Assembly (NCBI GenBank): GCA_041665485.1
Contig: JBAYIT010000001.1
Span: 73,884 to 137,883, forward strand
DNA: 64,000 nt
From: Candidatus Shapirobacteria bacterium
GTDB taxonomy: Bacteria > Patescibacteriota > Microgenomatia > UBA12405
Reading direction: 5' to 3'
Position numbers and translations under genes: made by a program. This document shows, one piece after another, positions 23,479 to 63,696 of this stretch; the stretch's first letter is position 1; each line of letters opens with the position of its first letter. The notes below the pieces were generated by a model. It ran no database searches. It was not told where the DNA came from and was given only the letters and a program-made list of their open reading frames with translations.

Positions 23479-23513
23479 CAGTTAACAGTTACGAGTTATC
23501 GGTTACGAGTTGA
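23479..23513. repeat. heptamer tandem array (CAGTTAA CAGTTAC GAGTTAT CGGTTAC GAGTTGA)
   Basis: Five degenerate 7-mers directly after the clpB stop. A near-identical array lies at 63362-63389. Confidence 0.6.
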
Positions 23514-45716: not shown

Positions 45717-46901
45717 ATGTTGTATAAAAAGCGACTGGAAAGAAATATCTTTCTGTCTTATGTCTCGACTTTTTTAGTGTCGTGGTTGTTCTTCATTCCC
45801 ATATGGTTCTCCTTTGAAACACAATTTGCCAACCCCGGGTTACTTTCAGTAATTTACGCTTTGACTTATGTGATAACAATTATTTTAGAGATTCCAACAG
45901 GGGCTTTGGCTGATCTTATTGGTAGAAAAAGTACAGTAATAACTGGGTCAATTATTCAAGGATTGGGGTGGATTTTAATTTCACAGTCAAAAGGAGTTGA
46001 ATGGTTGTGGTGTGGTTATGGAATAGGAGCGATAGGAGGAGCTTTGATTTCTGGCGCCAATACAGCATTGGTATATGACTCATTAAAGGAATTGGGGAGA
46101 GAACGATATTTTGCCAGATTTTCGAGTCTTAGCGGTCTACTTTTTAGAGTAGGAATGATATTTTCGTCTTTTTTAGGTGGATACATTTATTTGATCAATA
46201 AGGGATTGCCTTATATCTTAGTAGGAGTCAATTATATTTTAGCTGGAATAGTGACTTTTCTAATAATTGAACCAAAAATTGATTCGGAGAAGTTTAGTTT
46301 CCAAAATTATTTACGACAGACAGGTCTGGGGGTAAAGCATCTTTTGGCCAATGAAAAAATTAAATGGTACTCGGTTTATTACATGATTATTGGAGGAACA
46401 ACTTGGTATTTTCAATATTTCTTAAATCAAAGTTACGCCACACTGATGGGATTTGACGAAATTCAAAGGAGCTGGCTGTTTTCTAGTGTTTTTTTAATAA
46501 TCGGAGTTTTGGGGTTGTTTATCGCTAAACATGTAAGTAAGTACAAATTTTTTATCGTGATGTTGCCGGTGTTGACAATTGTCGGTTATTTTTCCGGAGC
46601 GGTGGCAAATAGTTTGGTGGCAATAGTTGCCATATTTTTGGTTCAATTTACGGGAACGTTGCGTTTTTCCATTTTAGATCAATATGCTAATGATCAAATT
46701 GAGTCAAGATATAGAGCAACGGCGTTATCGGTTTTGAATATGTCAGTTAGCTTGGTATTTGTGGTTTTATCTCTCGGATTAAGCTCGGTTATAGATTCTC
46801 ACGGCGCTAAAATAGTTATGGGAATAATGGGGATGATTACATTAATAGCGGGAGTGCCGGCAACAATTAAAGTATTGGTTAATGAAAGAAATGGAAAATA
46901 G
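45717..46901 (+). CDS. MFS-type transporter (paralog 3 of 4)
   Basis: 'ALADLIGRKSTVI' and 'SRYRATALSVL'. Confidence 0.6.
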   Translation: MLYKKRLERNIFLSYVSTFLVSWLFFIPIWFSFETQFANPGLLSVIYALTYVITIILEIPTGALADLIGRKSTVITGSIIQGLGWILISQSKGVEWLWCGYGIGAIGGALISGANTALVYDSLKELGRERYFARFSSLSGLLFRVGMIFSSFLGGYIYLINKGLPYILVGVNYILAGIVTFLIIEPKIDSEKFSFQNYLRQTGLGVKHLLANEKIKWYSVYYMIIGGTTWYFQYFLNQSYATLMGFDEIQRSWLFSSVFLIIGVLGLFIAKHVSKYKFFIVMLPVLTIVGYFSGAVANSLVAIVAIFLVQFTGTLRFSILDQYANDQIESRYRATALSVLNMSVSLVFVVLSLGLSSVIDSHGAKIVMGIMGMITLIAGVPATIKVLVNERNGK

Positions 46902-47463
46902 ACAGGAGAAGATTGAGAGGGTGATTGGGAATAGGAGAGAGGGGGTGGTGGTGCTGGAAGATATTCATGACCCACATAATGCGGCGGCGGTATGGAGAAG
47001 TTGTGATGCTTTTGGCTGGCAAAAAGTCTATTTGATTTTTGATAAAGAAATCCCTTTTAATCCAAAAAAGGTTGGTAAAGCCAGTTCGTCATCGGCCAAT
47101 AAATGGCTAACTTTTAAGATTTTTAAGTCGACAAAAGAATGTTTTGAAGAACTAAAAAAGGATGGCTTTGAAATTTACGCCACAGTACTTGATGAGGGAT
47201 CGAAGGGCTTGTGGGAAACAAAATTTAGAAACAAGAAAACAGCCATAGCTTTGGGAAACGAGCATAGAGGATTGTCGGAAACGGCAGTGAAATTGGCTGA
47301 CCGAAAAATTTATATTCCAATGAGAGGAATGGTGCAGAGTTTGAATTTGTCGGTGACGGCGGGGATAGTGTTGGCAGAGGCCGAAAGACAGAGAAATTCA
47401 GATCCTAGATCTTGGATGTTAGATCTTAGGGAAAAAGAAGAGTTGTTGAAGAGGTGGAGATAG
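46882..47463 (+). CDS. SpoU/TrmH-family RNA 2'-O-methyltransferase
   Basis: 'LEDIHDPHNAAAVWRSCDAFG', 'ALGNEHRGLS' and 'IPMRGMVQSLNLSV' SPOUT motifs. The C-terminus overlaps a heptamer array. Confidence 0.7.
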   Translation: MKEMENRQEKIERVIGNRREGVVVLEDIHDPHNAAAVWRSCDAFGWQKVYLIFDKEIPFNPKKVGKASSSSANKWLTFKIFKSTKECFEELKKDGFEIYATVLDEGSKGLWETKFRNKKTAIALGNEHRGLSETAVKLADRKIYIPMRGMVQSLNLSVTAGIVLAEAERQRNSDPRSWMLDLREKEELLKRWR

Positions 47464-47487: not shown

Positions 47488-49266
47488 ATGGTTAGCAAAA
47501 AACAAATAAGCTGGAACCTGGATGGTTTGTATAAAGCGGAGGAGTTTGAAAAGAAATTGAAAGAGACGGAAGAAGAATTAAAAAAGTTTGATGAGTGGTG
47601 GGAGAAAATAAGCCCGGAAATGGCGGAGGAGGAATTTAAAAAATTGTTGGTATTTTTGGAAGAATTTTCAGATAAGCTGGCTATTTTGGGAGGGAGGCCG
47701 GGGTTGGCCGAATCGGTTGATCAAAAAGATAGAGAAGCAAAACTACAAAGGGCAAAAATAGAAGAATTGGGATTAAGAATTGCCGATAAAACTAGAAAAT
47801 TTGATCATTGGATAAAAGGGCTACCACTAGAAAGCAGAAAAACACTTGATGACAAAAATGCCAAAAGACTGTTTGGAGTAATTGCCGATTTAAAATATGG
47901 ATTGGAAAAAGGGAGAGAAGCGGCCAAACATACTTTGAGCCAAAAAGAGGAAAGAATAATTGATTATAAAGATACTTTTGGAATTGGGCCATTAAATGAT
48001 CTTCGAGAAATGGTGGTGACAGAGTGGGATTTTGACTTAAAAATTGGCAAAAAGATTAAAAAGATTAAAACACAGTCGGATTTGATGGCGCTTGTCCATA
48101 GCCCAAAAAGAGAAATAAGAAAGGCGGCATATAAAGCTTTATGGCAAAAATATGGAAAAAATATTGATAAGCTATTTTTGGTTTATAGCAATGTGGTCAA
48201 AGATTGGGGTTTTGAGGCTAAGGCGAGGAATTACAAAAGCCCAATTGGTGTGAGAAATTTTGGTAATAATATACCCGATGAAGCCGTAGAAACATTGATG
48301 GAAGTGTGCCGAGAAAAAAAGCCGATATTTGAGAGATATTTTAAAACCAAGGCAAAGATATTGGGACTAAAAAAACTGTCGCGATGGGACGTTTATGCCC
48401 CAACGGGGGTGGAGGTGGATAAAAAAATTGATTATACCCACGCCAAAGAAATAGTTCTGGAAAACTTTAATAAATTCGGGCCGAAATTTTTTGAATATGC
48501 AAAAGAGATTCTTGATAAAAAGCACGTCGACGTGTTTCCAAGACCAAGTAAAAGAAGCGGGGCGTTTTGCGCCACTATTAGCCCAAGAATTGCCCCATAT
48601 GTGATGCTTAATCACACCAATAAATTACGAGATGTGATGACACTGGCCCATGAACTGGGGCACGGAGTTCATTCGTTATTTGGGCAAAACCATTATCCTT
48701 CGGCTCAACATGCCGGGTTGCCACTGGCGGAAACAGCCTCGACTTTGGGAGAAATGATGGTGTTTGAAGAAATTTACAAAAACAGCGATAAAAAAACGAA
48801 AAAGGCCTTGTTGGTGGAAAAAATGGCTGACAGCTATGCCACTATTTTGAGGCAAAATTATTTTGTGATGTTTGAGAAAGAAGCCCACGAAAAAATTCCC
48901 GGAGGAATAAGGGTGGAAGAGTTAAATAAAATGTATCTAGATAATTTGAAAGATCAGTTTGGGGGGAGTGTGGTAGTTTCTGACGACTTTAAATACGAAT
49001 GGGCGTATGTGTCGCATATTTTTGAAACGCCGTTTTATTGTTATGCCTACAACTTTGGTCAATTGGTGTCGTATTACTTGTATTCAAGGTATAAAAATGA
49101 AGGAAAAGGGTTTGTAAAAGTAATCGAAAAGATACTGGAGGCAGGTGGATCAAGAGATCCGGATCTGGTTTTAAAGGAAGTTGGGATTGATATGAGGGAT
49201 AGAAATTTTTGGGTAAACGCTTTTGGGGTAGTAGAAAGTTGGCAAAAAGAATTAGAGGGGCTTTGA
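47488..49266 (+). CDS. pepF: oligoendopeptidase F (M3 family)
   Basis: Zinc motif 'HELGHGVH' and M3B family length. Confidence 0.8.
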   Translation: MVSKKQISWNLDGLYKAEEFEKKLKETEEELKKFDEWWEKISPEMAEEEFKKLLVFLEEFSDKLAILGGRPGLAESVDQKDREAKLQRAKIEELGLRIADKTRKFDHWIKGLPLESRKTLDDKNAKRLFGVIADLKYGLEKGREAAKHTLSQKEERIIDYKDTFGIGPLNDLREMVVTEWDFDLKIGKKIKKIKTQSDLMALVHSPKREIRKAAYKALWQKYGKNIDKLFLVYSNVVKDWGFEAKARNYKSPIGVRNFGNNIPDEAVETLMEVCREKKPIFERYFKTKAKILGLKKLSRWDVYAPTGVEVDKKIDYTHAKEIVLENFNKFGPKFFEYAKEILDKKHVDVFPRPSKRSGAFCATISPRIAPYVMLNHTNKLRDVMTLAHELGHGVHSLFGQNHYPSAQHAGLPLAETASTLGEMMVFEEIYKNSDKKTKKALLVEKMADSYATILRQNYFVMFEKEAHEKIPGGIRVEELNKMYLDNLKDQFGGSVVVSDDFKYEWAYVSHIFETPFYCYAYNFGQLVSYYLYSRYKNEGKGFVKVIEKILEAGGSRDPDLVLKEVGIDMRDRNFWVNAFGVVESWQKELEGL

Positions 49267-49272
49267 AAGTAG

Positions 49273-49833
49273 TTATTCGCGGCAACAGTCAAGAACTTTA
49301 CCGATAACACCACTTATTTTGCCCATAAAGTCGGATTTTTTGTAAGTGATGGGTGTTTCTTTGGGATCCAATCCCTCTAAATCTCCCTTTGACCCGTCGG
49401 GTGCCCGGGCAAGCGAGGGAGACTTAATCATGCCCAAATTAATACCCCAAAAGAGATTGTAGAGGTCGTAGGACTTTTTGAAGTAATCATAGGCCTTGGC
49501 GTTATCCCCTTTTGTTTGATGTTTAGTACCAACTTCCATTAAGCGCATCGAGGCGGCCAGGAGGTGTTTACTAATGCACCATTCTTCACCACCATAGTCT
49601 TTGATAATTTCCTTAAGAAGGTCGACTCGCATGCGACGAATGTCATTGATTAGGTCGTAATATTTGTTGTCACCAGTTTTGCCACCGGAAAAAAATAAGT
49701 GTTCTTCAATAGAAATCAAATTCATAATACCAATGGAGAGGTCCTCCCCGGAAGATAGGTCAAGTTTTTGGCCGGCTTCGGCACTTTTAACTTTATCCAT
49801 GAATTGCTGAAGGTCGAGGGTTTTTGGTTTCAT
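49273..49833 (-). CDS. hypothetical protein
   Basis: ORF convergent with pepF. No motif recognised. Confidence 0.4.
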   Translation of the reverse strand: MKPKTLDLQQFMDKVKSAEAGQKLDLSSGEDLSIGIMNLISIEEHLFFSGGKTGDNKYYDLINDIRRMRVDLLKEIIKDYGGEEWCISKHLLAASMRLMEVGTKHQTKGDNAKAYDYFKKSYDLYNLFWGINLGMIKSPSLARAPDGSKGDLEGLDPKETPITYKKSDFMGKISGVIGKVLDCCRE

Positions 49834-49899
49834 GGGAGAATTATATCAGCCGGGATTATAATTAAGGTAGTGAAGACAAACAGACAGATAACAGAGTTG

Positions 49900-50250
49900 A
49901 TGGTGGATGATGTTGGTCAGTCAGTTGATTTTTATAGTAAATTTTTGGGGTTTAAACTAAAAAATAGGGTAGAGGAAACTTGGGCGGAGGTAGAAAACGA
50001 AAGTGTTGTTATTCAGTTTTTAGCAAGAAAGGCATTTGAAAAAGAAGTAAATGAGTTTGGAGGAAGAGAGAAAGGAGGAACTTTTTTGTTGCTATTTGAA
50101 ATTGAAGAGGTGGAGGAAATATACAAGAAAATAATGAATCTGGTGGAAATTGTTGACAGGTTAAAAAAGACTGATTATGGAACGAAGGAGTTTAAATTTA
50201 AAGATAACAGTGGTTATATAATTCAATTAACAGAGAGAGTTAGAGATTAA
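49900..50250 (+). CDS. VOC / glyoxalase-bleomycin-resistance family protein
   Basis: 'MVDDVGQSVDFYSKFLGFKL' beta-alpha-beta-beta-beta N-terminus. The start is uncertain (ATG 49900 or GTG 49869). Confidence 0.5.
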   Translation: MVDDVGQSVDFYSKFLGFKLKNRVEETWAEVENESVVIQFLARKAFEKEVNEFGGREKGGTFLLLFEIEEVEEIYKKIMNLVEIVDRLKKTDYGTKEFKFKDNSGYIIQLTERVRD

Positions 50251-50255
50251 TAGCT

Positions 50256-51074
50256 ATGAAACAAATGGTGGTGAGAACAAAGATGGGTTTGGAGGAGATC
50301 GGGAAGACGAAGAATGATTTTGAGTATTGGTCGGCGAGGGAGTTGATGACAGTGCTGGGGTATATTGAATGGAGGAAATTTTGGGGTGTAGTGAAAAAAG
50401 CGAAGGTGGCTTGTAAAAATAGCGGATATGAGCCGAAAAACCATTTTGTCGGAGCCGCCAAAATGGTAGCAATTGGATCTGATACCATGAGGCGGTTAAG
50501 TGACTATTGGTTAACCCGTTATGCCTGTTATTTAATAGCCCAGAATGGGGATAGCCGGAAACCAGAGATTGCTTTTGCCCAAACTTATTTTGCGGTACAA
50601 ACAAGAAAACAGGAAATCAGGGAGGCGGATGAGAAACTGGTAAAAAGAATTGAAGCTAGAGAGAGGTTAAAAGAAACAGAAAGAAAAATTGAGGGAACGG
50701 TATATAAAAGAGGAATTCGAAGTTCGGCTGATTTTGCTAGCTTTAAAGATAAACATATTCGAGGTCTGTATGGAGGGATAGGGATTGCTAGTTTAAAAAA
50801 GAAAAGAAAGATTCCTAAAAATCGGGCCCTGGCAGACTTCGACAGCTTTTTGGAGTTAAGGGCGAAAGATTTTGCCCTAGCGATGACTGATCACAATATT
50901 AAAGACAAAAATTTGACTGGGAAGCCAAAACTAGAAAAAGAGGTTTATGAGAACAGCGTGGCAACTAGAAGAACAATGCTAAAACGTGGAATAATGCCGG
51001 AAAACTTAAAGCCGGAAAAAGATATCAAGGAGATTAAAAGCAGACTAGAGATTAAAGGCGAACTTGAAGGCTAG
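50256..51074 (+). CDS. DNA-damage-inducible protein D (DinD) homolog
   Basis: Collinear with E. coli DinD: 'YWSARELM..LGY', 'KMVAIGSDTMRRLSDYWLTRYACYLIAQNGDSRKPEIAFAQTYFAVQTR'. Confidence 0.6.
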   Translation: MKQMVVRTKMGLEEIGKTKNDFEYWSARELMTVLGYIEWRKFWGVVKKAKVACKNSGYEPKNHFVGAAKMVAIGSDTMRRLSDYWLTRYACYLIAQNGDSRKPEIAFAQTYFAVQTRKQEIREADEKLVKRIEARERLKETERKIEGTVYKRGIRSSADFASFKDKHIRGLYGGIGIASLKKKRKIPKNRALADFDSFLELRAKDFALAMTDHNIKDKNLTGKPKLEKEVYENSVATRRTMLKRGIMPENLKPEKDIKEIKSRLEIKGELEG

Positions 51075-51584
51075 GGTTAGCAAAAGAACAAGACTGACGG
51101 GGAAAACGACTTTGGCATAGGGAAAAGGAGCGTAGCCTAGCTTCTTTTTAGTGTTGAGATAGGTGATGTTGCCAATAAGCATGCCTAGGAAACCCAGGAC
51201 TTGGCCGAAAATAATTTTGTCAATGCCAAGCAGTTTATTAGCGGAGTGGCCAGTTTGGCCGGTGGTAATAAAATAAGCAAGGGTGGTTAGAAGTAAGATT
51301 AGAGAAAGAAATATGGGTTTGGAAAAAATTTCCAATTTCCAATTTCCAATTTCTAATTTATTCAGTTTGGGAGCCAGCCAGAAGGCGAGGGCGGTGTTGA
51401 GGGCGGAGATCCAGATACTAACTAGAAGATCGTCAATGCCGAGTTTTTTGGCAATTAACATTCCCCCACCGACAGTAACGATACATACGGGGCACTGCGC
51501 CCCTACGGGGGGCGCAAGAAATAAGAAATAAGAAATAAGAAATAAGAATGAAAACAAAAATATCATAGAGTTATTGTAATACAT
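51045..51584 (-). CDS. hypothetical membrane protein (start uncertain)
   Basis: Several TM segments. The N-terminal 50 codons run through simple repeats and GC hairpins, so the real start may be an internal Met. Confidence 0.35.
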   Translation of the reverse strand: MYYNNSMIFLFSFLFLISYFLFLAPPVGAQCPVCIVTVGGGMLIAKKLGIDDLLVSIWISALNTALAFWLAPKLNKLEIGNWKLEIFSKPIFLSLILLLTTLAYFITTGQTGHSANKLLGIDKIIFGQVLGFLGMLIGNITYLNTKKKLGYAPFPYAKVVFPVSLVLLLTLAFKFAFNL

Positions 51585-51600
51585 GTTCCCGAAGGCGCCT
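51573..51600. terminator. perfect 28-nt palindrome ATGTTCCCGAAGGCGCCTTCGGGAACAT (hairpin)
   Basis: Perfect inverted repeat 15 nt downstream of the Cys-rich mini-ORF stop, read on the minus strand. Confidence 0.5.
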
Positions 51601-51614
51601 TCGGGAACATCTGG

Positions 51615-51698
51615 CTACTTACCGCATTTACATGCTTTACCTTTTTGGCAGTCGCAGGAACAACTGGAGTCACAGGAACAATTTTTGCTGTCGTCCAT
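51615..51698 (-). CDS. metallothionein-like Cys-rich peptide (27 aa: MDDSKNCSCDSSCSCDCQKGKACKCGK)
   Basis: Not in the supplied ORF track. Has its own promoter (TTGCAT-17-TACACT) and a downstream perfect palindrome. 9 Cys in 27 residues. Confidence 0.4.
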   Translation of the reverse strand: MDDSKNCSCDSSCSCDCQKGKACKCGK

Positions 51699-51719
51699 GG
51701 TTTGTTTAACTGATAACTA

Positions 51720-52271
51720 CTACGAGTGTAGTACTTTATTTAAGATGATGCAAGAGGCAAACCAAAGGGAACCGAGAAGGTAACCACCAAGAATGTCGGT
51801 GGGGTAATGAACTCCGAGGTAGATACGGCTAAAACCAATAAGAAGAACAACAATCACAGCAAACATAAAAGAAATTAAACTTAAACGTCTGTTTTTGGTG
51901 AGACGGTAAATTAAAAAAACTAGGGTGAAATAAAAAACTAGAGAATTCATGGCGTGGCCGGAGGGGAAGCTGGTAGTGGATTCAAAAATTAGCGGAGAAA
52001 TATTGGGCCGAGGCCGGGCAATAAGTGATTTAAGCAGTAAGTTAATAGGGAGACTTAGGGAAGCAAATAAACCAAAGGAGAGAAGATGTTTGGCCCGTTT
52101 AAGCCGGACAACAAGGGCGAGAACTAAAAAGAGAGCAGAAAAAACATACTCGGAACCGAGATTGGTGACGAATAACATAAATTCTGTTAAAGCCGGGGTG
52201 CGAAAAGTGTAGATGAATTGGGAAATAACAAGATCAAAAGGAAGAATAAGATTAATAATATTGTTGACCAC
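51720..52271 (-). CDS. PAP2-family phosphatase (undecaprenyl-diphosphate / lipid phosphatase-like)
   Basis: PAP2 motifs 'KSLIARPRP', 'SFPSGHA' and 'SRIYLGVHYPTD'. Confidence 0.75.
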   Translation of the reverse strand: MVNNIINLILPFDLVISQFIYTFRTPALTEFMLFVTNLGSEYVFSALFLVLALVVRLKRAKHLLSFGLFASLSLPINLLLKSLIARPRPNISPLIFESTTSFPSGHAMNSLVFYFTLVFLIYRLTKNRRLSLISFMFAVIVVLLIGFSRIYLGVHYPTDILGGYLLGSLWFASCIILNKVLHS

Positions 52272-52277
52272 AAACGA

Positions 52278-52787
52278 TTATAAGTTATCTTTAATCCATT
52301 TTTCGATTGGAATGGAAGGATTGATGGTTAAAAAAACTTCAGGAAAAATGGGTGGCTCTAACTCTTTTATGGTGGCTTTAAATAATTCATTACTAACATC
52401 AAAACGAATTTGGTGTTGACGATTGTGAAGCAATCTTTGGCGGGCGAGCGAGGGTGGAGTGTCGACAAAAATAGTAATGGCTTCTAAACCGAGATTGTCG
52501 ACAATGGCCCTGACTAATCCCCTTTCATAACGAGTAAAGTTACCAGCATCTTGAACGACTGACTGCCCGGAAAGTAGGGCATTTTTGACTTTCTGATACA
52601 TAGATTGATAAATTTGGTCCCATTCCGGCTCTGTGACTTTTTCGTCGGGTAAATCTGGCCCGACAATTTCGACCTTAACTTCATCAAGATCAACACGAAC
52701 AAAACCTTTTATTTGGGAAATGAGTTTTGAAATAGTGGTTTTACCAGAAAAAGAGATACCACACATTATGTAGAGTTTAGGAAGCAT
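52278..52787 (-). CDS. P-loop kinase (AAA_33-like)
   Basis: Walker A 'CGISFSGKTT'. 169 aa. Confidence 0.5.
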   Translation of the reverse strand: MLPKLYIMCGISFSGKTTISKLISQIKGFVRVDLDEVKVEIVGPDLPDEKVTEPEWDQIYQSMYQKVKNALLSGQSVVQDAGNFTRYERGLVRAIVDNLGLEAITIFVDTPPSLARQRLLHNRQHQIRFDVSNELFKATIKELEPPIFPEVFLTINPSIPIEKWIKDNL

Positions 52788-52799
52788 AGTTTATTATAC

Positions 52800-52855
52800 T
52801 TGACAACAGTGTTAGAAGGGTCTAACATATGAGTGTTAGAAGAATCTAACTTATG
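52800..52855 (+). promoter_or_regulatory. promoter TTGACA-17-TAACAT overlapped by two tandem 24-nt palindromic operator repeats
   Basis: AGTGTTAGAAGGGTCTAACATATG and AGTGTTAGAAGAATCTAACTTATG. Each contains TGTTAGA-N4-TCTAACA. The second overlaps the XRE start codon. Confidence 0.6.
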
Positions 52856-53047
52856 AAAACGAAAATTAAAGAGATGAGGACCAAACTTGGGCTGACCCAG
52901 GAGCAATTGGCCGACAAGACGGGAGTGAGGCGGGAAACGATAGTGTTTCTGGAGCAGGGAAAATATATCCCCTCTTTAAAGTTGGCACATGATGTAGCGA
53001 AAATATTAAAGACAAAAATTGATTATTTATTTATTTTTGAGGATTAA
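52853..53047 (+). CDS. XRE-family HTH transcriptional regulator (64 aa)
   Basis: '[26 protein letters not shown]' HTH_3 motif. Confidence 0.7.
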
Positions 53048-53049
53048 AA

Positions 53050-53472
53050 ATGCTAGCAAAAACAGAATGGTTTAATAGTAGAAAGTTTGGCGGATGGGGA
53101 TTAACACCCAGAACTTGGCAGGGGTGGGTGTATGTGTTGGTTTTGACGGCACCGTTGGCCCTGATCCCCTATTTGCCCATTGAACAAAAATGGCAGACAC
53201 CGTTAATGTTGGGGTGGGGAGCAGTAGTAGTGATTGATGTTATGGGAATAATGTATCGAATTAAAAAAGATGAGCGGGAAGTGGCTCATGAGGCGCTGGC
53301 GGAGCGAAATGCGATGTGGTTTATGGTGACGGCACTGGGAATTGGAGTGGCCTATCAGGCAATGATGAGCGCTACGGCCGGGACAAACCAGGTGGACCCA
53401 GTAATAATTATTGCCCTAGCGGGATCAACGATAGTCAAGGCCACTAGCCATTGGTGGTTGAGGGATAAATAA
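53050..53472 (+). CDS. small membrane protein (partner of the XRE regulator)
   Basis: Three or four TM segments. 3-nt gap after the HTH gene. Confidence 0.4.
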   Translation: MLAKTEWFNSRKFGGWGLTPRTWQGWVYVLVLTAPLALIPYLPIEQKWQTPLMLGWGAVVVIDVMGIMYRIKKDEREVAHEALAERNAMWFMVTALGIGVAYQAMMSATAGTNQVDPVIIIALAGSTIVKATSHWWLRDK

Positions 53473-53475
53473 AAA

Positions 53476-54630
53476 ATGACAGATTGGAAGAAAAACGTAC
53501 TGGTCTATAAGATTGATTCGTTCTTAAATTGGTTCTATGTGCCGATTGGAGTCTGGGTGCTGATTTGGAATCATTTTTTTAGCTTTAGCCAAATATCGTT
53601 ATCGATGGGAATAAGTTTGTTGGCGGGGGTGGCTTGCGAACTACCATCGGGGGCATTGGCAGACATGATTGGACGGAAAAGGACGGTAATGCTAGGGAGA
53701 TTAATTTTGTTTCTGGGGTATGTATGGTTATTTTTCAGGCACGATTTTGTTGGTTTTTTAGTCTGGCAAATTGCTTACCAAATTGATGGAGCCTTTACAT
53801 CTGGGGCTAATTCGGCTCTACTTTACGACTCACTTAAGGAAAACGGACAAGTGGAGAAACATTACAAAAAAGTTGAGGCGGACACTTTTATGTACAACAC
53901 TATCGGCATGGCAGTGGGAGGAATCTTTGGGGGATTATTGTACGAAATTACCCCAATGGGGCCATATAATTTTATGATTTTAGTAACAGGGCTGGGGTTG
54001 TTGGCCTCGTGTTTTTACCAAGAGCCAGCAATGGAAAAAATTGGGTGGAGCGTTAAATCTTATTTAAAGCAAAATTATGATGGTTTTATGCACATTTTTA
54101 GCAATGAAAAGATTAAAGCAGTGTCGCTGTTTTCAATTGCAGTGAGTGTGGTGACATATACCGGACTTTGGTATCTGTATGAACCGAGGCTGACGGCGGG
54201 AGGGTTTGACCCAAAAATTTTGGCAATACTAATTTCTGGAACGTACGCCATCAGAGCGGTGGGGACAAGATTTAACCCAACTCCTTTAGTAATGGCGATT
54301 TCTCAAACCGTGGGAACAGCATTATCGTTTGCTGGGGGGAAATTTGGAGCAGTGAGTTCGGTTTATCTCAGAAAATTTGTAGATGGTTGCCGACAACCGA
54401 GTTTAATTGCCTGGCAAAATGATCAAATAGAATCGAAATACCGAGCGACGTCATTGTCGGCGATATCTTTGCTAACAAATTTAATAGTCGGAGGGGTGGG
54501 GCCATTATTAGGAGTGGGAATTGATAGGTTCGGAGCGGAAACTACTTTGGGGATATGGACTATTTTTGGGGTAGTAGTGGTAATACCGTTGGGGTGGAGG
54601 TTGGGAGTTATAATGAAAAATAAGACATGA
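53476..54630 (+). CDS. MFS-type transporter (paralog 4 of 4)
   Basis: 'ALADMIGRKRTVM' and 'SKYRATSLSAISLL'. Confidence 0.6.
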   Translation: MTDWKKNVLVYKIDSFLNWFYVPIGVWVLIWNHFFSFSQISLSMGISLLAGVACELPSGALADMIGRKRTVMLGRLILFLGYVWLFFRHDFVGFLVWQIAYQIDGAFTSGANSALLYDSLKENGQVEKHYKKVEADTFMYNTIGMAVGGIFGGLLYEITPMGPYNFMILVTGLGLLASCFYQEPAMEKIGWSVKSYLKQNYDGFMHIFSNEKIKAVSLFSIAVSVVTYTGLWYLYEPRLTAGGFDPKILAILISGTYAIRAVGTRFNPTPLVMAISQTVGTALSFAGGKFGAVSSVYLRKFVDGCRQPSLIAWQNDQIESKYRATSLSAISLLTNLIVGGVGPLLGVGIDRFGAETTLGIWTIFGVVVVIPLGWRLGVIMKNKT

Positions 54631-54834: not shown

Positions 54835-55893
54835 CTAAATAGCCTCGAGGGTGCCGGAGACCATGCCCATCCAACAGGAGAAGTTGTAGACGCCTGGTTT
54901 GGTGACAGAGAACTCGCGAACAGAAGTGGTGCCGGGGACTAAATTGACGGGGCCGTCGAACAGTTGGCGGGCAATAACGGCGTTGGTGCAACCGCCGGTG
55001 CCAGTGTCAGTAATTTCCCAACGAACGGGAACATTGGCGCGGACTTTAAGACGAGAGGGAGAGTAGCCACGGGAAGAGGCGGACATTTTGAGGACTTGGA
55101 CGCCGTTGACGATGGGGGGTAAACCTTTGTTAGATCCTAGATTTTGGATGTTAGATCCTAGATTAATTTGTGGAGAAAAACCGAGGACTTTTAGTTGAGA
55201 AGAGAGATTAAAAAAGGCAAAGGCAATGACCAAAAGCCCGACAACTTGGGAGACAGAAGGCTTGGAGCTAAACTTTGAGCCTGAATAGCCGATGAGAAAA
55301 AGCGGAATAGCCGTGCCTAGGGCAAAAAAGCCCATAATTAGGGCGCCGGTAACAAAAGAGCCGGAGGCGAGGGCGAGAGATTGAGAAGTGAGAGTAAAAC
55401 CGCAAGGAAGAAAAAATGTTAGAGCGCCGATAAGAAAACTATTTTTGGTTAGTGATTGAGGAGAAAAAGACAAGCGGATAACTCTTAGACCAAGAATTTG
55501 GAGACCAAAAAGAATCATGGCAAGAGATACGATAATAGTTAGGATTGAACCAAGAGTAAAAGAAAGTCGGATAGACTGGCCAAGAAAACCCAGAAGACCG
55601 CCAAGAAGAAAAAAAGAAGTGAGCCTTCCGGTGTTAAATGAAAAACGATGGTGAGAAAGAGAAAGGGCAATGCCGCCAATTAGTCCGGCGCAAGTGGAAA
55701 AGCCAGCTAAGAGACCAAAGGGAAAGAAGGCTAGGGGGAGAGAATCTGGGGTGACACTAAAAAGAGAAAACAAGCTTGTTTGACTTAAAAAATAAACGGT
55801 AGTTAGAATTATTCCAACAATAATAAAAGAATTTATTAGATTGGCTGGTTTGGAGGGAGTATTTGAATGACAACAATCGCCTTGTGAAGACAT
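54835..55893 (-). CDS. polytopic permease with C-terminal cupredoxin-like (Cu-binding-like) domain
   Basis: N-terminal 'DCCHS'. TM Cys motifs 'FSTCAG' and 'LPCGF'. C-terminal 'TGGCTNAV...GVYNFSCWMGMVSG' resembles cupredoxin_1-type domains. Confidence 0.45.
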   Translation of the reverse strand: MSSQGDCCHSNTPSKPANLINSFIIVGIILTTVYFLSQTSLFSLFSVTPDSLPLAFFPFGLLAGFSTCAGLIGGIALSLSHHRFSFNTGRLTSFFLLGGLLGFLGQSIRLSFTLGSILTIIVSLAMILFGLQILGLRVIRLSFSPQSLTKNSFLIGALTFFLPCGFTLTSQSLALASGSFVTGALIMGFFALGTAIPLFLIGYSGSKFSSKPSVSQVVGLLVIAFAFFNLSSQLKVLGFSPQINLGSNIQNLGSNKGLPPIVNGVQVLKMSASSRGYSPSRLKVRANVPVRWEITDTGTGGCTNAVIARQLFDGPVNLVPGTTSVREFSVTKPGVYNFSCWMGMVSGTLEAI

Positions 55894-55923
55894 ACTACAA
55901 GTGTAGTACTTAAGAAGGATTTG

Positions 55924-56232: not shown

Positions 56233-56242
56233 TTTTGGTATA

Positions 56243-56636: not shown

Positions 56637-57367
56637 ATGAAGAAAATGGAGAAAGTGAAAAAGATTTTGGAGAAGACGGGAAAATATTGGATTGGATTTG
56701 TGGGAGATTCGATAACCAGTTGCGAATGGGTGCATCCAAACTGGCGAGAGATTGTGGAGTATGTGCTGAAAGAAGAATTACAACCGAAGTTTGCTGATTG
56801 GCGGGTTCCCTCCTGGGGAATTAGATGTTTTAATTATGGGTTTGACGGAGCAACAACTGGAGATATATTAAAACTAATTTCCAATTACCAATTACCAATT
56901 TCCAACCTCAACCTAGTGATTAGTTTAATGGGAGGAAATGACAGATTGTTTGGAATAAAACCGGAAGAATCAAAAAAAATATTGAGAAAATAATTAAAAA
57001 ACTTGATGAGAGTGGTGTTGAAGTGGTGTGGTGTACTTCAATTCCGGCTTATTATCGGGCAGACAAAAACAAAGAATACGAGCCTTATGCTAAGGCAACT
57101 ATGGCAATTGAAAAATCAATGGGTGTTCAGATAATTAATATGTTTGAAAAATACAAACAATTTGACCTAGATCGTTTTTTTACGTTTAAATCGGAGGAAA
57201 ACCCAGAAGAGAGAGTAAAGGAGGGAGATTTAGATTTTTGGCATCCGAATCAGCTGGGAAATGCTTATATTGCCAAAATAATTTTGGGAGAAGTGTTTGG
57301 GGTGGAATTTGACCCGGAAAAATATATTAAAGAAAATTTGGCAGGAGAAAAATATCCGGGGTATTAA
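56637..57367 (+). pseudogene. SGNH/GDSL hydrolase split by a frameshift at an A8 homopolymer (56976-56983)
   Basis: Block I 'GFVGDSIT' and block III 'GGND' are in the first ORF. Block V 'DFWHPN' is in the second. Adding one A in the A8 run fuses the frames (PEESKKNIEKIIKKLDESGVEVVWCTS). Confidence 0.6.
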
Positions 57368-58312: not shown

Positions 58313-58870
58313 ATGAAACAAACACAACAGAATCTTCTTAAGGCCTTTGCCGGTGAGTCACAGGCAAGGAATAAATATACAACTTTTGCCAAGATTGCCA
58401 GAAAGGAGAATTTGGAATGGGTGGCGAGGATTTTTGAGGAGACAGCTGATAACGAAAGAGTTCATGCGGAGGAATTGTTTGAAATGATCAATGAGCCGGT
58501 AGTAGTGCCGGGAGACTTGGCGATTGCCCCGTTTAGCAAAACAAGCGATAACCTAAAAATGGCGGCGGAGGGGGAAAAATATGAATGGACGCAAATGTAT
58601 CCTGACTTTGAGGCAATTGCCAAGGAAGAAGGCGAGACCGAGCCAACAAGACTGTTTGGAGAATTAAAAGAAGTTGAGGAGAAACACGAGGAAAGATATA
58701 TTATAATTGCTCGGAAACTTGATAGTAATACCCTTTACAATTCGGAGGCGGAGTTGGAATGGAAATGTTTAAATTGTGGCTATATTCACAAGGGGACAAC
58801 TCCCCCACCGACTTGTCCAGTCTGTAAAAAACCGTTGACATGGTATGCGGGGTTGGGATTGATAAGGTAA
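58313..58870 (+). CDS. rubrerythrin with C-terminal rubredoxin-like domain
   Basis: Ferritin-like 'LLKAFAGESQARNKY' with 'ERVHAEE' diiron ligands, and a C-terminal 'CLNCGY...CPVC'. Confidence 0.85.
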   Translation: MKQTQQNLLKAFAGESQARNKYTTFAKIARKENLEWVARIFEETADNERVHAEELFEMINEPVVVPGDLAIAPFSKTSDNLKMAAEGEKYEWTQMYPDFEAIAKEEGETEPTRLFGELKEVEEKHEERYIIIARKLDSNTLYNSEAELEWKCLNCGYIHKGTTPPPTCPVCKKPLTWYAGLGLIR

Positions 58871-58873: not shown

Positions 58874-58908
58874 TAGATCCTAGATGCTAGATCTTAGATC
58901 CTAGATAC
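58874..58908. repeat. heptamer tandem array (TAGATCC TAGATGC TAGATCT TAGATCC TAGATAC)
   Basis: Five 7-mers between the convergent rubrerythrin and HAD genes. Related arrays lie at 47401-47430 and 55134-55168. Confidence 0.6.
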
Positions 58909-59501
58909 TTTTTTAAGTCGGAAAGGAGGCGGGGGTAGTTTTGATAAAGAATAGTGTTGAGGCCGAGGGGTTGGGCGGCGAGAATATTTTCTAAACCGTC
59001 GTCAATATATAAAACTTCCTTGAAGTTATAACCAGTGTGTTTGGGGATCTGCTGATAAAACTCTGGTTCGGGTTTACGAACACCAACTTGCCAAGAAATA
59101 ATTGAGCGGTGAAACAGTGAGGTGAGAGGTTGATTAATGTAGGGAAAAAGGAAGTTTTCAGCATTGGAAACCATAATTAGAGTAAATTTTGGTTTTAGTT
59201 GTTTTAGAAGTCTGATTAATCGGTGATTGAGATGTTTTTCAAACCGAGTTTGGCTAAGTGAATTTTTGAGGCAATTATCGATTTGCTGAGGGGTAATTTG
59301 AGGATTAATGGAGCGAGACCATTGGTAAATGTCGAGGTGATTGGTTTCAAAGTCACGATAAACCTCTTGATATTTTTGCCAATACGGGGCAAATTTGATA
59401 CCAAGCAAGGAAGCGTGGCGATGACGAAAATAGGTTAGGGGTTTTTTAAAATACCAAATGACATTGCCAACATCAAAGGCAAGACAACGGATCATGGCCA
59501 A
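58887..59501 (-). CDS. HAD-superfamily hydrolase
   Basis: Motif I 'LAFDVGNV' and motif IV 'YIDDGLENI'. Confidence 0.6.
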   Translation of the reverse strand: MAMIRCLAFDVGNVIWYFKKPLTYFRHRHASLLGIKFAPYWQKYQEVYRDFETNHLDIYQWSRSINPQITPQQIDNCLKNSLSQTRFEKHLNHRLIRLLKQLKPKFTLIMVSNAENFLFPYINQPLTSLFHRSIISWQVGVRKPEPEFYQQIPKHTGYNFKEVLYIDDGLENILAAQPLGLNTILYQNYPRLLSDLKKYLGSKI

Positions 59502-62685: not shown

Positions 62686-63696
62686 ATGCAGGATAATGTT
62701 TACGATACGATCATTGTCGGATCAGGACCGGCGGGATTAACGGCGGCGATATATAATGTCCGATCGGCACTGAAAACAATTGTGGTTGCCGGAAACCAGC
62801 CAGGGGGACAATTGACACTAACAACAACGGTGGATAATTTTCCAGGATTTCCAGAAGGGGTTGGCGGGGTTAAGTTGATGATGGATACCCAGCAACAGGT
62901 GAGGAATTTAGGAGTGACTATTCGTAACAACTCTGTTACGAAAATAACCAATAACCAAAAAACAATTTCCAAACAAGTTCCAATAACCAATTTTCCAAGT
63001 TCCAAACTATTTGAAGTTGAATTGGATAATGGGGAAAAATTGCAGGCAAGGGCGGTGATTGTGGCAACGGGAGCGAGGGCAAAGTGGCTCCAGATTCCAA
63101 AAGAAAGAGAGTTAGTTGGGAAAGGAGTATCGGGATGCGCTACTTGTGATGGGATGTTTTTTAGGGACAAAACGGTAGTGGTGGTGGGCGGTGGAGAAAC
63201 AGCGGTAGAGGACGCGGAGTTTTTAGCTAGAATGGCAAAAAAAGTTTATATAATTCACCGAAGAGATGAATTAAGAACCAGCGCCTCGGCACAAAAAAGA
63301 GTGTTTGCAAATCCAAAAATTGAAATGGTGTGGAATAGTGAAGTGGTGGAAATCAATTGTCAGTTATCAGTTACGAGTTACGAGTTAGAAAAGTTACAAA
63401 ATATAAAAATAAAGAACAACAAAACTGGGGAAGAAAAGATAATGGAAATTGAGGGATTGTTTGTGGCGATTGGGAGGCAACCGGAGACGGAGTTTGTTAA
63501 GGATTTAGTGGAATTAAGAGATGAGGGTTATGTAGTGACTGGGAAAAATCCAGAATATCCGATGATGACAACACTGGAAGGAGTTTTTGCCGCCGGTGAC
63601 TGCATGGATTCTATATACAGACAGGCGATTGTGGCGGCAGGAGCGGGGGCAAGGGCGGCACTGGATGCGGAGAGATGGCTGAAGAATGGAAGTTAG
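62686..63696 (+). CDS. trxB: thioredoxin reductase
   Basis: 'IVGSGPAGLTAAIY', redox-active 'CATCDG', 'VVGGGETAVEDA' and 'GVFAAGDCMD'. Contains two embedded heptamer arrays. Confidence 0.85.
   Translation: MQDNVYDTIIVGSGPAGLTAAIYNVRSALKTIVVAGNQPGGQLTLTTTVDNFPGFPEGVGGVKLMMDTQQQVRNLGVTIRNNSVTKITNNQKTISKQVPITNFPSSKLFEVELDNGEKLQARAVIVATGARAKWLQIPKERELVGKGVSGCATCDGMFFRDKTVVVVGGGETAVEDAEFLARMAKKVYIIHRRDELRTSASAQKRVFANPKIEMVWNSEVVEINCQLSVTSYELEKLQNIKIKNNKTGEEKIMEIEGLFVAIGRQPETEFVKDLVELRDEGYVVTGKNPEYPMMTTLEGVFAAGDCMDSIYRQAIVAAGAGARAALDAERWLKNGS

What the first reader, a model, noticed from the sequence alone, without database searches (positions are those of the whole stretch)
47401..47430. TAGATCY heptamer-array family present at three loci in different frames and strands
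Three arrays share a near-identical sequence of about 30-35 bp made of degenerate 7-mers (TAGATCC TAGATYT TGGATGT TAGATCY TAG...). They lie at 47401-47430, 55134-55168 and 58874-58908. The first sits inside the TrmH-like C-terminus, encoding 'SDPRSWMLDLR'. The second sits in the linker of the permease-cupredoxin gene on the other strand, encoding 'INLGSNIQNLGSNK'. The third spans the HAD gene stop codon and the intergenic spacer after the rubrerythrin gene. Because the same DNA is translated in different frames and strands, it is conserved at the DNA level, not the protein level. The arrays are GATC-rich (Dam-like sites) and their length is not a multiple of 3. They may be a novel miniature insertion or slippage element, or contingency-type repeats.
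Basis: seen in the sequence. Interest (0 to 1): 0.6.

Follow-up and report, generated by a model that had tools for sequence, protein, structure and literature searches.

The report
Dispersed seven-base repeat arrays in Shapirobacteria
The three look-alike 30-35 bp stretches are real copies of one short 7-base tandem-repeat family in an uncultured Candidatus Shapirobacteria genome; such heptamer repeats are a known but unexplained bacterial feature, and here they sit at old, fixed positions in genes and spacers rather than being new insertions or on/off switches.

Summary
Window 47399-47430, 55131-55165 and 58874-58908 carry TAGATCY heptamer arrays, far above chance. A fourth copy lies about 7.6 kb past the window end. 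All four are on the + strand.

The genome (Candidatus Shapirobacteria, CPR) is rich in about 31-bp period-7 arrays of several unit families, one of which is the reverse complement of the published TAACTGA repeat.

Syntenic relatives carry heptamer arrays at the same positions, in the same register and at nearly the same length, but with other units. The sites are the TrmH tail, the DsbD_2-cupredoxin linker and the rubrerythrin/HAD spacer. So these are not recent insertions.

Orthologous arrays are only 48-55% identical. Non-orthologous arrays within one genome are 83-93% identical. That pattern indicates concerted evolution plus copying between arrays.

Three independent assemblies are identical at the arrays each covers, so nothing supports phase variation. 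No RNA structure, Rfam family or terminator was found.

TAGATCY arrays do occur in many phyla. Composition-matched control heptamers are just as frequent, so that is generic heptamer-array background.

Verdict: a new member of the known heptanucleotide (STRR-like) repeat class, of moderate interest.

The parts
47399..47430 (+). TAGATCY array copy 1 (4.3 units). It encodes aa 173-184 (SDPRSWMLDLR) of the SpoU/TrmH-like methyltransferase, after the Pfam domain (aa 22-164). The unit-3 change TAG to TGG removes an in-frame stop.
   Evidence: lag-7 matches 18/24, top 0.14% of windows
55131..55165 (+). TAGATCY array copy 2 (5 units). It is read on the - strand as NLGSNIQNLGSN in the linker between the DsbD_2 (aa 56-226) and cupredoxin (aa 265-349) domains. 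The array, including the TGGATGT unit, is retained in relative L199.
58874..58908 (+). TAGATCY array copy 3 (5 units). It fills the 16-nt spacer between convergent rubrerythrin and HAD genes and encodes the last six HAD codons plus its TAG stop (YLGSKI*) on the - strand.
46882..47463 (+). SpoU/TrmH-like RNA methyltransferase gene, host of copy 1
54835..55893 (-). DsbD_2-cupredoxin membrane protein gene, host of copy 2
58313..58870 (+). Rubrerythrin gene, ending 3 nt before copy 3
58887..59501 (-). HAD hydrolase gene whose 3' end and stop codon lie in copy 3
23480..23511 (+). AGTTAAC AGTTACG AGTTATC GGTTACG array, the reverse complement of the TAACTGA family. It lies 4 nt after the ClpB-like stop and upstream of tRNA-Arg. 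It matches 23 of 24 bases of the array that relative L200 carries at the rubrerythrin/HAD spacer.
51327..51359 (+). AATTTCC x4.7 array inside ORF 51045-51584 (-). Same family as 56876-56905.
51516..51548 (+). AAGAAAT x4.7 perfect array at the N-terminus of ORF 51045-51584 (-). The orthologous sites in L081 and L204 carry AGAAACT arrays.
56876..56905 (+). AATTTCC AATTACC AATTACC AATTTCC array in a GDSL-lipase loop. L199 and L200 carry the orthologous array AATAACC AATAACC AAATTCC AATAACC at the same length and register.
62943..62983 (+). AATAACC/AATTTCC-type degenerate array in a thioredoxin-reductase loop, which is longer than in solved homologues
63352..63401 (+). ATCAGTT/ACGAGTT array (TAACTGA family, 'reverse' orientation) in thioredoxin reductase. 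It encodes QLSVTSYEL and is about 8 aa longer than in solved homologues.

Best explanation
These are heptanucleotide simple-sequence arrays of the STRR / 'long SSR' type in a Candidatus Shapirobacteria (CPR) genome that is generally rich in short period-7 arrays (about 4.4 units, about 31 bp).

The arrays occupy long-lived, mutation-tolerant sites: protein tails, inter-domain linkers, surface loops and short 3' spacers.

Inferred mechanism:
- Within an array, 7-nt slipped-strand or template-switch events that leave length unchanged keep the units alike. In coding DNA, only frame-preserving outcomes and outcomes that remove in-frame TAG stops survive. This explains the TGG unit.
- Between arrays, occasional ectopic copying (a short gene-conversion-like patch) overwrites one resident array with another array's sequence. 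The same roughly 30-mer then appears at several nearby loci on one DNA strand, while the orthologous site in a relative carries a different unit.

No sequence-specific cellular function is implied.

Shown: periodicity, orthology of sites, conserved length, unit turnover, within-genome similarity, strand bias.

Inferred: slippage and conversion as the processes, and neutrality.
For: 1. Excess and period.
- Array excess over shuffles.
- Period 7 is the only period giving strict arrays: 3 in the window against 0 in 30 Markov shuffles.
- Period 7 dominates the TRF output in the window and in L081, L200 and L204.
- There are 21 period-7 arrays in 125 kb, 20-45 bp long, median 31.

2. Orthologous arrays.
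- TrmH tail units: window AGATCCT AGATCTT GGATGTT AGATCTT AGG; L081 AGGAGAT AGGTACT TGGGACT TGGTACT AGG; L204 AGAAACT GGAAACT GGAAACT AGAAACT GGA. Codon positions and length are the same.
- All are in the top 0.02-0.6% of lag-7 scores.
- DsbD linker: L199 keeps the TAGATCY array, and L200 has GTTAACC GTGATCC GTAAACC GTGGAAC at the same length.
- Rubrerythrin/HAD spacer: L200 has an ACGAGTT/ATCAGTT array of 40 nt where the window has 35 nt.
- Lipase loop array is orthologous in three genomes.

3. Concerted evolution.
- Orthologous array segments share 15-17 of 31 bases, against 68-78% across the whole gene.
- Units within an array are 64-90% alike.
- Non-orthologous arrays in one genome share 25-28 of 30 bases (window) and 28 of 31 (L204).

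4. The same higher-order sequence occurs at non-orthologous loci. AGTTACGAGTTATCRGTTACGAGT sits at window 23487 and in the L200 rubrerythrin/HAD spacer, matching 23 of 24 bases.

5. Strand.
- All 4 TAGATCY copies are on the + strand, as are 3 of 3 AATTTCC arrays, 2 of 2 AGTTACG arrays and 2 of 2 AGAAACT arrays in L204.
- Two TAGATCY copies are on the sense strand of their gene and two on the antisense strand.
- All lie in one GC-skew domain.
- This points to a DNA-strand process, not a transcript-level one.

6. Long arrays in other phyla change unit gradually along their length, as expected from local duplication plus mutation.

7. Literature: heptanucleotide units are the commonest long-SSR class, and slippage was the proposed cause (Mrazek 2007, as summarised in PMC4679880; PMC4692102).
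Against: - No length polymorphism was seen, so ongoing slippage is not directly observed. The available strains are 99.97-100% identical, so this is weak evidence either way.
- Arrays with different units share only about 5 of 7 bases per unit, which is a poor substrate for RecA-type conversion. The transfer mechanism is therefore unexplained.
- The narrow length distribution, including intergenic copies of 35, 34 and 32 bp where the reading frame imposes no limit, is not predicted by simple slippage. It hints at a defined patch or element size.
- Why 7 nt is favoured, and why some Shapirobacteria relatives (L202, L203, L296) have almost no arrays, remains unexplained.
- Only about 84 kb of this genome could be examined.
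Confidence: 0.6

Rival explanations
1. The arrays are very small mobile elements. A defined copy-and-paste unit of about 30-35 nt, analogous to cyanobacterial small dispersed repeats, is spread by dedicated or hijacked machinery. It preferentially lands in, and overwrites, pre-existing heptamer arrays.
For: - Near-identical higher-order sequences, not just the same unit, occur at non-orthologous loci within and between related genomes.
- One site carries different families in two relatives: TAGATCY in the window and the TAACTGA type in L200 at the rubrerythrin/HAD spacer.
- The size distribution is tight, around 31 bp.
- Copies cluster within about 24 kb on one strand.
- SDRs associated with heptamer repeats were reported by Elhai et al. 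2008. That paper is listed as ref. 43 in PMC3116915, but its content is recalled from memory and was not read here.
Against: - No length change at coding sites.
- No terminal inverted repeats and no consistent target-site duplication.
- No transposase or reverse transcriptase among the ORFs scanned in the window or the precomputed domain calls for the rest.
- No hairpin beyond shuffled controls.
- Arrays of some unit already exist at the same sites in all heptamer-rich relatives.
Confidence: 0.2
2. The arrays are functional cis-elements. They could be repeated binding sites for a DNA- or RNA-binding protein. Candidates include a GATC-cluster (Dam/SeqA-like) site, a GGA-motif CsrA-type site on the complementary strand, or a six-frame translational stop or insulator at gene ends.
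For: - Pure TAGATCY arrays carry TAG in all three frames on both strands.
- Copies 3 and 4 supply the stop codons of the HAD gene and the TraC-like gene.
- MacGregor 2015 proposed regulatory roles for TAACTGA repeats.
Against: - Unit sequence is not conserved at orthologous sites.
- Several unrelated unit families coexist in one genome.
- Two of four copies are inside coding regions with their stops mutated away.
- GATC is not enriched genome-wide.
- No structure, terminator or Rfam match.
Confidence: 0.07
3. The arrays are contingency (phase-variation) loci. Gain or loss of a unit switches the host genes on or off, or alters their C-termini.
For: - A 7-nt unit is not a multiple of 3, so unit gain or loss would shift the frame.
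- Heptanucleotide phase-variable repeats exist elsewhere, for example in papers retrieved.
Against: - Arrays are identical in the ENA, JGI and Logan assemblies wherever they overlap.
- The protein clusters have a single member.
- Length and register are conserved across genus-level relatives.
- The host genes are housekeeping or accessory cytoplasmic and membrane proteins, and the arrays sit at tails and linkers.
- The one frameshifted gene nearby, the lipase, is broken at an A8 run and not at its array.
Confidence: 0.05
4. The similarity is independent convergence. Each array arose and evolved in place, and the resemblance between copies 1 and 2, including TGGATGT, comes from shared selection against stop codons and a shared mutational bias.
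For: - The A-to-G change making TGG in unit 3 is required to keep both ORFs open.
- TGG units recur in coding arrays of unrelated phyla, and G at unit position 6 is associated with TGG units: 8 of 27 against 11 of about 330.
- An unrelated MAG carries a 29-mer identical to copy 1 inside folD.
- Arrays of any heptamer unit arise repeatedly: control heptamers give 5-19 loci against 6 for TAGATCY in IMG/VR.
Against: - With about 1,170 possible units, four arrays of one unit within 84 kb are not expected from independent origins. Two further families are also shared between loci.
- TAGATC is otherwise rare in the window.
Confidence: 0.08

Closest known systems
Heptanucleotide long simple-sequence repeats in prokaryotes (Mrazek, Guo and Shah 2007, as summarised in PMC4679880 and PMC4692102) and cyanobacterial STRR heptamers (Calothrix PCC 7601)
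   Same: - Head-to-tail 7-nt units.
- Period 7 dominates other periods.
- The same unit occurs at several dispersed loci.
- Unit and length turn over between relatives at the same intergenic site, as Rehm 2015 reported for Xanthomonas.
- Function is unknown and slippage is the proposed cause.
   Different: - The host is a small CPR (Shapirobacteria) genome.
- Arrays are uniformly short, about 31 bp.
- Many lie inside coding regions, with length and register conserved among orthologues.
- The TAGATCY unit was not found in the searchable literature.
TAACTGA direct repeats of Beggiatoaceae, Cyanobacteria and Bacteroidetes (MacGregor 2015, PMC4679880)
   Same: - A heptamer with stop codons in all frames in one orientation.
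- It overlaps stop codons or sits at the periphery of proteins.
- The window itself carries this family as its reverse complement: ATCAGTT/ACGAGTT at 63352-63401, encoding QLSVTSYEL (compare LSVISYQ), and at 23480-23511.
   Different: - TAGATCY is a different unit.
- The arrays are not concentrated just upstream of start codons.
- There is no sign of a translational regulatory network.
- TAGATCY carries stops on both strands.
Small dispersed repeats (SDR1-8) of Nostoc punctiforme (Elhai et al. 2008, Genome Res 18:1484). Cited from memory and from the reference list of PMC3116915; the paper could not be read here.
   Same: - Dispersed sequences of tens of nucleotides.
- Found in genes and spacers.
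- Associated with tandem heptamers.
- Apparently mobile without an encoded enzyme.
   Different: - The dispersed unit here is itself a heptamer array.
- No hairpin was found.
- Coding copies replace sequence without changing its length.
- Membership cannot be tested without the SDR definitions.
Contingency-locus SSRs of host-adapted pathogens (Haemophilus, Neisseria)
   Same: A short tandem repeat whose unit length is not a multiple of 3, sometimes inside coding DNA.
   Different: - No copy-number variation.
- Not located in promoters or 5' coding regions of surface or restriction-modification genes.
- Length is conserved across relatives.
MITEs and REP/REPIN elements
   Same: Short, multi-copy, non-coding-type DNA dispersed in a genome.
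   Different: - No terminal inverted repeats or palindromic hairpin.
- No target-site duplication.
- No presence/absence length difference at orthologous sites.
- About 30 bp long, compared with more than 100 bp for MITEs.

Membership tests
Heptanucleotide long SSR / STRR-type arrays | Head-to-tail repeats of a 7-nt unit, at least 3 copies, beyond chance | tested here: met
   (8 matches against 0.41 expected). (TRF period 7, 4.3-5.3 copies). (lag-7 scores in the top 0.05-0.3% of windows).
Heptanucleotide long SSR / STRR-type arrays | Period 7 predominates over other repeat periods in the genome | tested here: met
   (strict arrays only at period 7; none in shuffles). (window, L081, L200, L204). 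(21 arrays in 125 kb).
Heptanucleotide long SSR / STRR-type arrays | The same unit recurs at several dispersed loci of one genome | tested here: met
   Four TAGATCY loci. AATTTCC at three loci, AGTTACG at two, and AGAAACT at two in L204.
Heptanucleotide long SSR / STRR-type arrays | Predominantly intergenic location | tested here: not met
   Two of four TAGATCY copies, and most other arrays in the window, lie inside called ORFs. The genome has very short spacers.
Heptanucleotide long SSR / STRR-type arrays | Copy-number or sequence variation between related strains or species at the same locus | tested here: met
   Unit sequence differs between relatives at orthologous sites, and length differs by 5 nt at the rubrerythrin/HAD spacer. 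Near-identical strains show no variation.
TAACTGA direct repeats (MacGregor 2015) | Unit TAACTGA or its complement | tested here: not met
   The TAGATCY unit differs. However, other arrays in the window (23480-23511, 63352-63401) are of the TCAGTTA/ACGAGTT type.
TAACTGA direct repeats (MacGregor 2015) | Concentrated within a few nucleotides upstream of start codons | tested here: not met
   Copies lie in a protein tail, a linker and two gene 3' ends. Copy 4 does end 11 nt before the next ATG.
Contingency (phase-variable) SSR locus | Repeat-number polymorphism among strains or reads | tested here: not met
   ENA, JGI and Logan assemblies are identical at the arrays wherever they overlap. The 90% protein clusters have one member. 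Read-level data were not available.
Contingency (phase-variable) SSR locus | Located in the promoter or 5' coding region of a switchable gene (surface, restriction-modification) | tested here: not met
   C-terminal tail of an RNA methyltransferase, an inter-domain linker, and a 3' end plus spacer.
MITE / miniature insertion element | Presence/absence with a length difference at orthologous sites | tested here: not met
   Same length in orthologues for TrmH, DsbD and the lipase. The spacer is 35 nt against 40 nt, with another array in its place.
MITE / miniature insertion element | Terminal inverted repeats and target-site duplication | tested here: not met
   Flanks were read directly. There are no inverted termini. 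Only copy 2 has a TTTGT on both sides. No dedicated inverted-repeat search was run.
Small dispersed repeats (Elhai 2008) | Family-specific 21-27 nt consensus sequences and their predicted hairpin | not testable with these tools
   The paper is not held. Folding of the arrays gives z-scores of -1.0 to 0.05.
Structured RNA / intrinsic terminator | Stable, better-than-shuffle secondary structure or an Rfam match | tested here: not met
   no terminator; z-scores -0.97 to 0.05; only four tRNAs in the window.

The most novel reading that the evidence does not exclude
A homology-poor, strand-specific copy-and-paste process operates in some CPR bacteria. It overwrites resident roughly 31-bp heptamer arrays, even inside essential genes, with the sequence of another array family, without changing length. 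This would amount to a 'very small mobile element' or templated short-patch rewriting system. Its presence or absence would distinguish heptamer-rich Shapirobacteria lineages from heptamer-poor ones. Its enzyme, for example a repair polymerase or primase-polymerase, would explain the long-standing puzzle of why 7-nt repeats dominate in certain prokaryotic genomes.
Probability: 0.2. Interest if true: 0.7.

Novelty: new member of a known kind. Interest (0 to 1): 0.4.

Why it matters
Heptanucleotide repeats are the commonest long simple-sequence repeats in many prokaryotes, yet their origin and the preference for 7 nt remain unexplained.

This small, gene-dense CPR genome places such arrays inside conserved genes. 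Orthologue alignments can therefore fix their position, register and length exactly. That exposes three things:
- persistence of the sites
- rapid concerted change of the units
- sharing of array sequence between loci on one DNA strand

If followed up on complete genomes, comparing heptamer-rich with heptamer-poor Shapirobacteria could point to the process or enzyme responsible.

For annotation there is a practical warning. Short 'conserved' peptides such as ETGNWKLETGE, DPRSWMLDLR or NIQDLGS in these proteins are by-products of DNA repeats, not functional motifs.

Tried and rejected
1. Cross-phylum family. The degenerate 29-mer hit 77 loci in GTDB genomes and more than 116 in metagenomes across many phyla, including a 29-nt exact match to copy 1 in a groundwater MAG (L050).
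- Composition-matched permuted heptamers are equally frequent in IMG/VR: 10, 19 and 5 loci against 6.
- The other arrays at those loci use 83 further distinct units.
- The L050 array sits in folD without changing its length.
- I therefore read this as generic heptamer-array background plus convergent stop avoidance, not a shared element.

2. Genome-wide count. The source species is not in the genome collection. Only 10 kb beyond the window end and 7.3 kb before its start could be added.

3. RNA element or terminator. Folding z-scores are not significant, there is no terminator and no Rfam hit.

4. Strain indel at 54697-54797. This is a run of N in the JGI scaffold, not a real difference.

5. 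Lipase frameshift as an array effect. The frameshift is at an A8 run (56971-56978), and the array is intact and in register with relatives.

6. P0016 as a possible closer relative with a truncated tail. Its gene simply ends earlier and has no array.

7. Search for an encoded enzyme. Pfam domain scans, run here on most ORFs and precomputed for the rest, found no reverse transcriptase or transposase. The AEP-TOTE primase-helicase at 12313-14097 is noted, but nothing links it to the arrays.

8. The Elhai 2008 SDR paper could not be retrieved.

9. Literature search for the TAGATCC unit found nothing relevant.
Full report
**1. Observation**

The three stretches are present as described.
- Copy 1, 47399-47430: CAGATCC TAGATCT TGGATGT TAGATCT TAGgg.
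- Copy 2, 55131-55165: TAGATCC TAGATTT TGGATGT TAGATCC TAGATTA.
- Copy 3, 58874-58908: TAGATCC TAGATGC TAGATCT TAGATCC TAGATAC.

A two-unit probe with one mismatch finds 8 sites, all inside these three arrays. The expectation is 0.41, and 0 of 100 dinucleotide shuffles reach 8. Copies 1 and 2 share 28 of 30 bases. Copy 3 shares 25/30 with copy 1 and 28/32 with copy 2. The flanks are unrelated.

The gene assignments are correct.
- Copy 1 encodes SDPRSWMLDLR. This lies after the SpoU_methylase domain (aa 22-164 of 193).
- Copy 2 is read on the - strand as NLGSNIQNLGSN. It sits between the DsbD_2 domain (aa 56-226) and the cupredoxin domain (aa 265-349).
- Copy 3 fills the 16-nt spacer between convergent rubrerythrin and HAD genes. 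It also provides the last six HAD codons and the stop (YLGSKI*).

There is one correction. Copies 2 and 3 are read in the same frame relative to the unit.

The TGG in unit 3 of copies 1 and 2 is the single change that removes an in-frame stop. On the + strand it turns TAG into TGG. On the - strand it turns TAA into CAA.

**2. Source and assemblies**

The window is 100% identical to ENA ERZ27249449 contig k141_1025756 (411,674 bp). It also recurs in a JGI and a Logan assembly. NCBI names the methyltransferase as coming from a Candidatus Shapirobacteria MAG. Window GC content is 40%.

The assemblies are identical across every array that each of them covers. The only apparent indel is a run of N in the JGI scaffold. 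The arrays are therefore not assembly artefacts, and no copy-number variation is visible.

**3. The arrays are one family among many heptamer arrays**

- TRF finds that every array with at least 4 copies in the window has period 7.
- A strict scan finds arrays only at period 7: 3 in the window and none in 30 Markov shuffles.
- Other families also recur at several loci, always on the + strand.
  - AATTTCC/AATTACC/AATAACC at 51327, 56876 and 62943.
  - AGTTACG/AGTTATC at 23480 and 63352.
  - AAGAAAT at 51516.
- AGTTATC is the reverse complement of the published TAACTGA repeat. In the thioredoxin reductase gene it encodes QLSVTSYEL, which resembles MacGregor's LSVISYQ.

Extending 10 kb past the window end shows a fourth TAGATCY copy at L206 18950-18983, again on the + strand. 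Its first TAG is the stop codon of a TraC-like gene.

Across the window and its heptamer-rich relatives there are 21 period-7 arrays in 125 kb. They are 20-45 bp long with a median of 31 bp.

**4. Orthologous sites in relatives**

Protein alignments show no length change across the arrays in TrmH or DsbD orthologues. DNA from syntenic relatives shows that the same sites are heptamer arrays there too, but with other units.

TrmH tail, at identical codon positions:
- Window: AGATCCT AGATCTT GGATGTT AGATCTT AGG.
- L081 (78% aa identity): AGGAGAT AGGTACT TGGGACT TGGTACT AGG.
- L204 (68%): AGAAACT GGAAACT GGAAACT AGAAACT GGA.
- L296: a decayed AGATTCT GAAAACT GGATGCT AGAAAAG.
- L202 and L203: no array.

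Several further orthologues have the peptide [DE]T[RG]NWKLET[RG]E, which is what the AGAAACT array encodes in L204. No DNA was fetched for them.

DsbD linker:
- L199 retains the array: cGGATCC TAGATCC TGGATGT TAGATCT TTGATTA.
- L200 has GTTAACC GTGATCC GTAAACC GTGGAAC at the same length.

Rubrerythrin/HAD spacer:
- L200 has ACGAGTT ATCAGTT ACGAGTC GACAGTT, 40 nt, where the window has the 35-nt TAGATCY array.

Other sites:
- The lipase-loop array is orthologous in three genomes.
- The array at the N-terminus of the roughly 170-aa ORF is also orthologous in three genomes.

All these segments are in the top 0.02-1.2% of lag-7 periodicity scores within their loci.

The arrays are therefore old residents of fixed sites, not recent insertions.

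In thioredoxin reductase, the two arrays coincide with loops that are longer than in solved homologues: about 8 aa longer at the second array, 7-16 aa at the first, depending on the homologue. So arrays can add length where a protein tolerates it.

**5. Pattern of divergence**

- Orthologous array segments share only 15-17 of 31 bases, against 68-78% identity across the whole gene.
- Units within an array are 64-90% alike.
- Non-orthologous arrays in the same genome share 25-28 of 30 bases in the window and 28 of 31 in L204. In L204 the AGAAACT array sits both in the TrmH tail and, 9 kb away, at the N-terminus of the 170-aa ORF.
- The 24-mer AGTTACGAGTTATCAGTTACGAGT of the L200 rubrerythrin/HAD spacer recurs at a non-orthologous site in the window. 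The site is 23487, in the clpB-tRNA spacer, and 23 of 24 bases match.

This is the signature of concerted evolution within arrays plus transfer of sequence between arrays.

All copies of each family have the same DNA-strand orientation. The four TAGATCY copies are split two and two between the sense and antisense strands of their genes. All lie in the strongly G-rich (+0.15 to +0.36) skew domain that begins at about 11.4 kb. This favours a DNA-strand process, probably replication-linked, over any transcript-level role.

**6. Mechanism (inferred)**

- Slipped-strand or template-switch events of one 7-nt unit create and homogenise the arrays.
- In coding DNA, only length-neutral outcomes survive (for example back-slip then forward-slip, which amounts to conversion between neighbouring units) and outcomes free of in-frame stops.
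- This fixes the arrays at about 4.4 units and explains the TGG unit.
- Occasional ectopic copying between arrays then spreads a particular higher-order variant.
- Copy 2 is shared with L199, so it predates that split.
- The TGG ATG codons of copy 1 are also present in L296's TrmH. The direction of transfer between copies 1 and 2 therefore cannot be decided.

Three things remain unexplained:
- why 7 nt is favoured
- why intergenic arrays are also about 31-35 bp
- why some relatives (L202, L203, L296) lack arrays

**7. Alternatives tested**

- RNA structure. Folding energies do not differ from shuffles (z = -0.97 to 0.05). No terminator. No Rfam family.
- Mobile-element hallmarks are absent. 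There are no inverted termini, no consistent target duplication and no length difference at coding sites. The domain scans found no transposase or reverse transcriptase.
- Phase variation. There is no polymorphism, and the sites are unsuitable.
- A cross-phylum TAGATCY family. The degenerate 29-mer occurs in 77 genome loci and more than 116 metagenome loci from many phyla.
  - 40 of the 77 genome loci carry other heptamer arrays as well.
  - Across all loci the other arrays use 83 further distinct units.
  - In IMG/VR the TAGATCY pattern gives 6 loci, no more than three composition-matched permuted heptamers (10, 19 and 5). TAACTGA gives 47.
  - The exact 29-nt match in an unrelated MAG lies inside folD and encodes LRSNIQDLGS.
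  - That match is compatible with convergence, because coding context forces the TGG unit.

**8. Comparison with known systems**

The closest class is heptanucleotide long SSRs and STRR repeats. Heptamers are the most abundant long-SSR class in many prokaryotes, and polymerase slippage was the proposed cause (PMC4679880 introduction). The function is unknown, and sequence and length vary between close relatives at the same intergenic sites (PMC4692102).

MacGregor's TAACTGA repeats share the all-frame stop property, the overlap with stop codons and the placement at protein peripheries.

Elhai's small dispersed repeats are the closest analogue for the inter-locus spread. That paper could not be read here.

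What seems new here:
- the host lineage (CPR)
- the TAGATCY unit, which was not found in the searchable literature
- the clear demonstration, thanks to coding context, of site persistence with length-neutral unit turnover

**9. Verdict**

This is a new member of a known kind and of moderate interest (0.4). I give a 0.2 chance that a distinct short-patch copy-and-paste mechanism underlies the inter-locus sharing. That would be considerably more interesting.

Noticed in passing
L206 18950-18983 (about window coordinate 71635-71668, just outside the window): A fourth TAGATCY array (TAGATCC TAGATGA TAGATCT TAGATCT TAGAT) on the + strand. Its first TAG is the stop codon of a TraC-like gene, and the array ends 11 nt before the ATG of a DUF87/TraG-like gene.
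   Followed up: yes
window 63352-63401 and 23480-23511; L200 5252-5291: Arrays of ATCAGTT/ACGAGTT, the reverse complement of the published TAACTGA heptamer family (PMC4679880), occur in this CPR genome. One lies inside thioredoxin reductase and encodes QLSVTSYEL. The same 24-mer occupies a different locus in relative L200.
   Followed up: partly
window 62686-63696 (+): The thioredoxin reductase gene carries two heptamer arrays. They coincide with loops longer than in solved TrxR structures, by about 8 aa at the second array and 7-16 aa at the first (5uth, 2q7v). Here the arrays appear to have added length.
   Followed up: partly
window about 11390-12312 and 12313-14097 (-): Cumulative GC skew has its minimum at about 11.4 kb. 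Skew is -0.15 to -0.25 just before that point and +0.15 to +0.36 from 12 kb on. Gene orientation flips there as well. An 880-nt non-coding stretch follows, then a 594-aa AEP-TOTE primase domain plus ResIII/DEAD helicase protein. This could be a replication origin or the edge of an inserted element. No link to the arrays was established.
   Followed up: partly
window 56637-56993 and 57023-57367 (+): The GDSL lipase is split into two ORFs by a 1-nt deletion in an A8 run (56971-56978). Relatives L199 and L200 have an intact 230-aa gene. The split is identical in the ENA and JGI assemblies, the two that cover this gene. It could be a pseudogene, a slippery-run frameshift or a shared sequencing error.
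   Followed up: partly
window 35797-36162 and 36117-36527 (+): A DUF1295-family gene appears split into two overlapping ORFs, matching profile positions 1-98 and 99-235. A frameshift is likely.
   Followed up: no
L081 2341-2375 and L204 10354-10385 (TrmH internal loop, aligned with window about 47190-47235): A second orthologous heptamer hot spot lies inside the TrmH gene of two relatives: AATCTTC-type units in L081 and AGATCTC-type units in L204. The window has no clear array at that position.
   Followed up: partly
loci L004-L198 (genome and metagenome hits): In TAGATCY arrays from many phyla, units mutated to TGG carry G at unit position 6 far more often than TAG units do: 8 of 27 against 11 of about 330. 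No explanation was found. Possibilities are loss of the newly created GGATC site, or shared descent.
   Followed up: partly
L202, L203, L296 compared with L081, L199, L200, L204: Richness in heptamer arrays is patchy even among Shapirobacteria relatives at similar distance (64-78% TrmH identity). Three loci of 16-20 kb each have no period-7 array, while the others have one every 3-9 kb.
   Followed up: partly
window 49000-58000 and L206 11000-21000: The array-rich part of the region is also rich in accessory genes. These include Bro-N, Gp49/HigB-type toxins with HTH partners, a Penicillinase_R repressor, a RelB-type antitoxin and TraC/TraG-like conjugation genes. It may be a mobile or variable region.
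   Followed up: no
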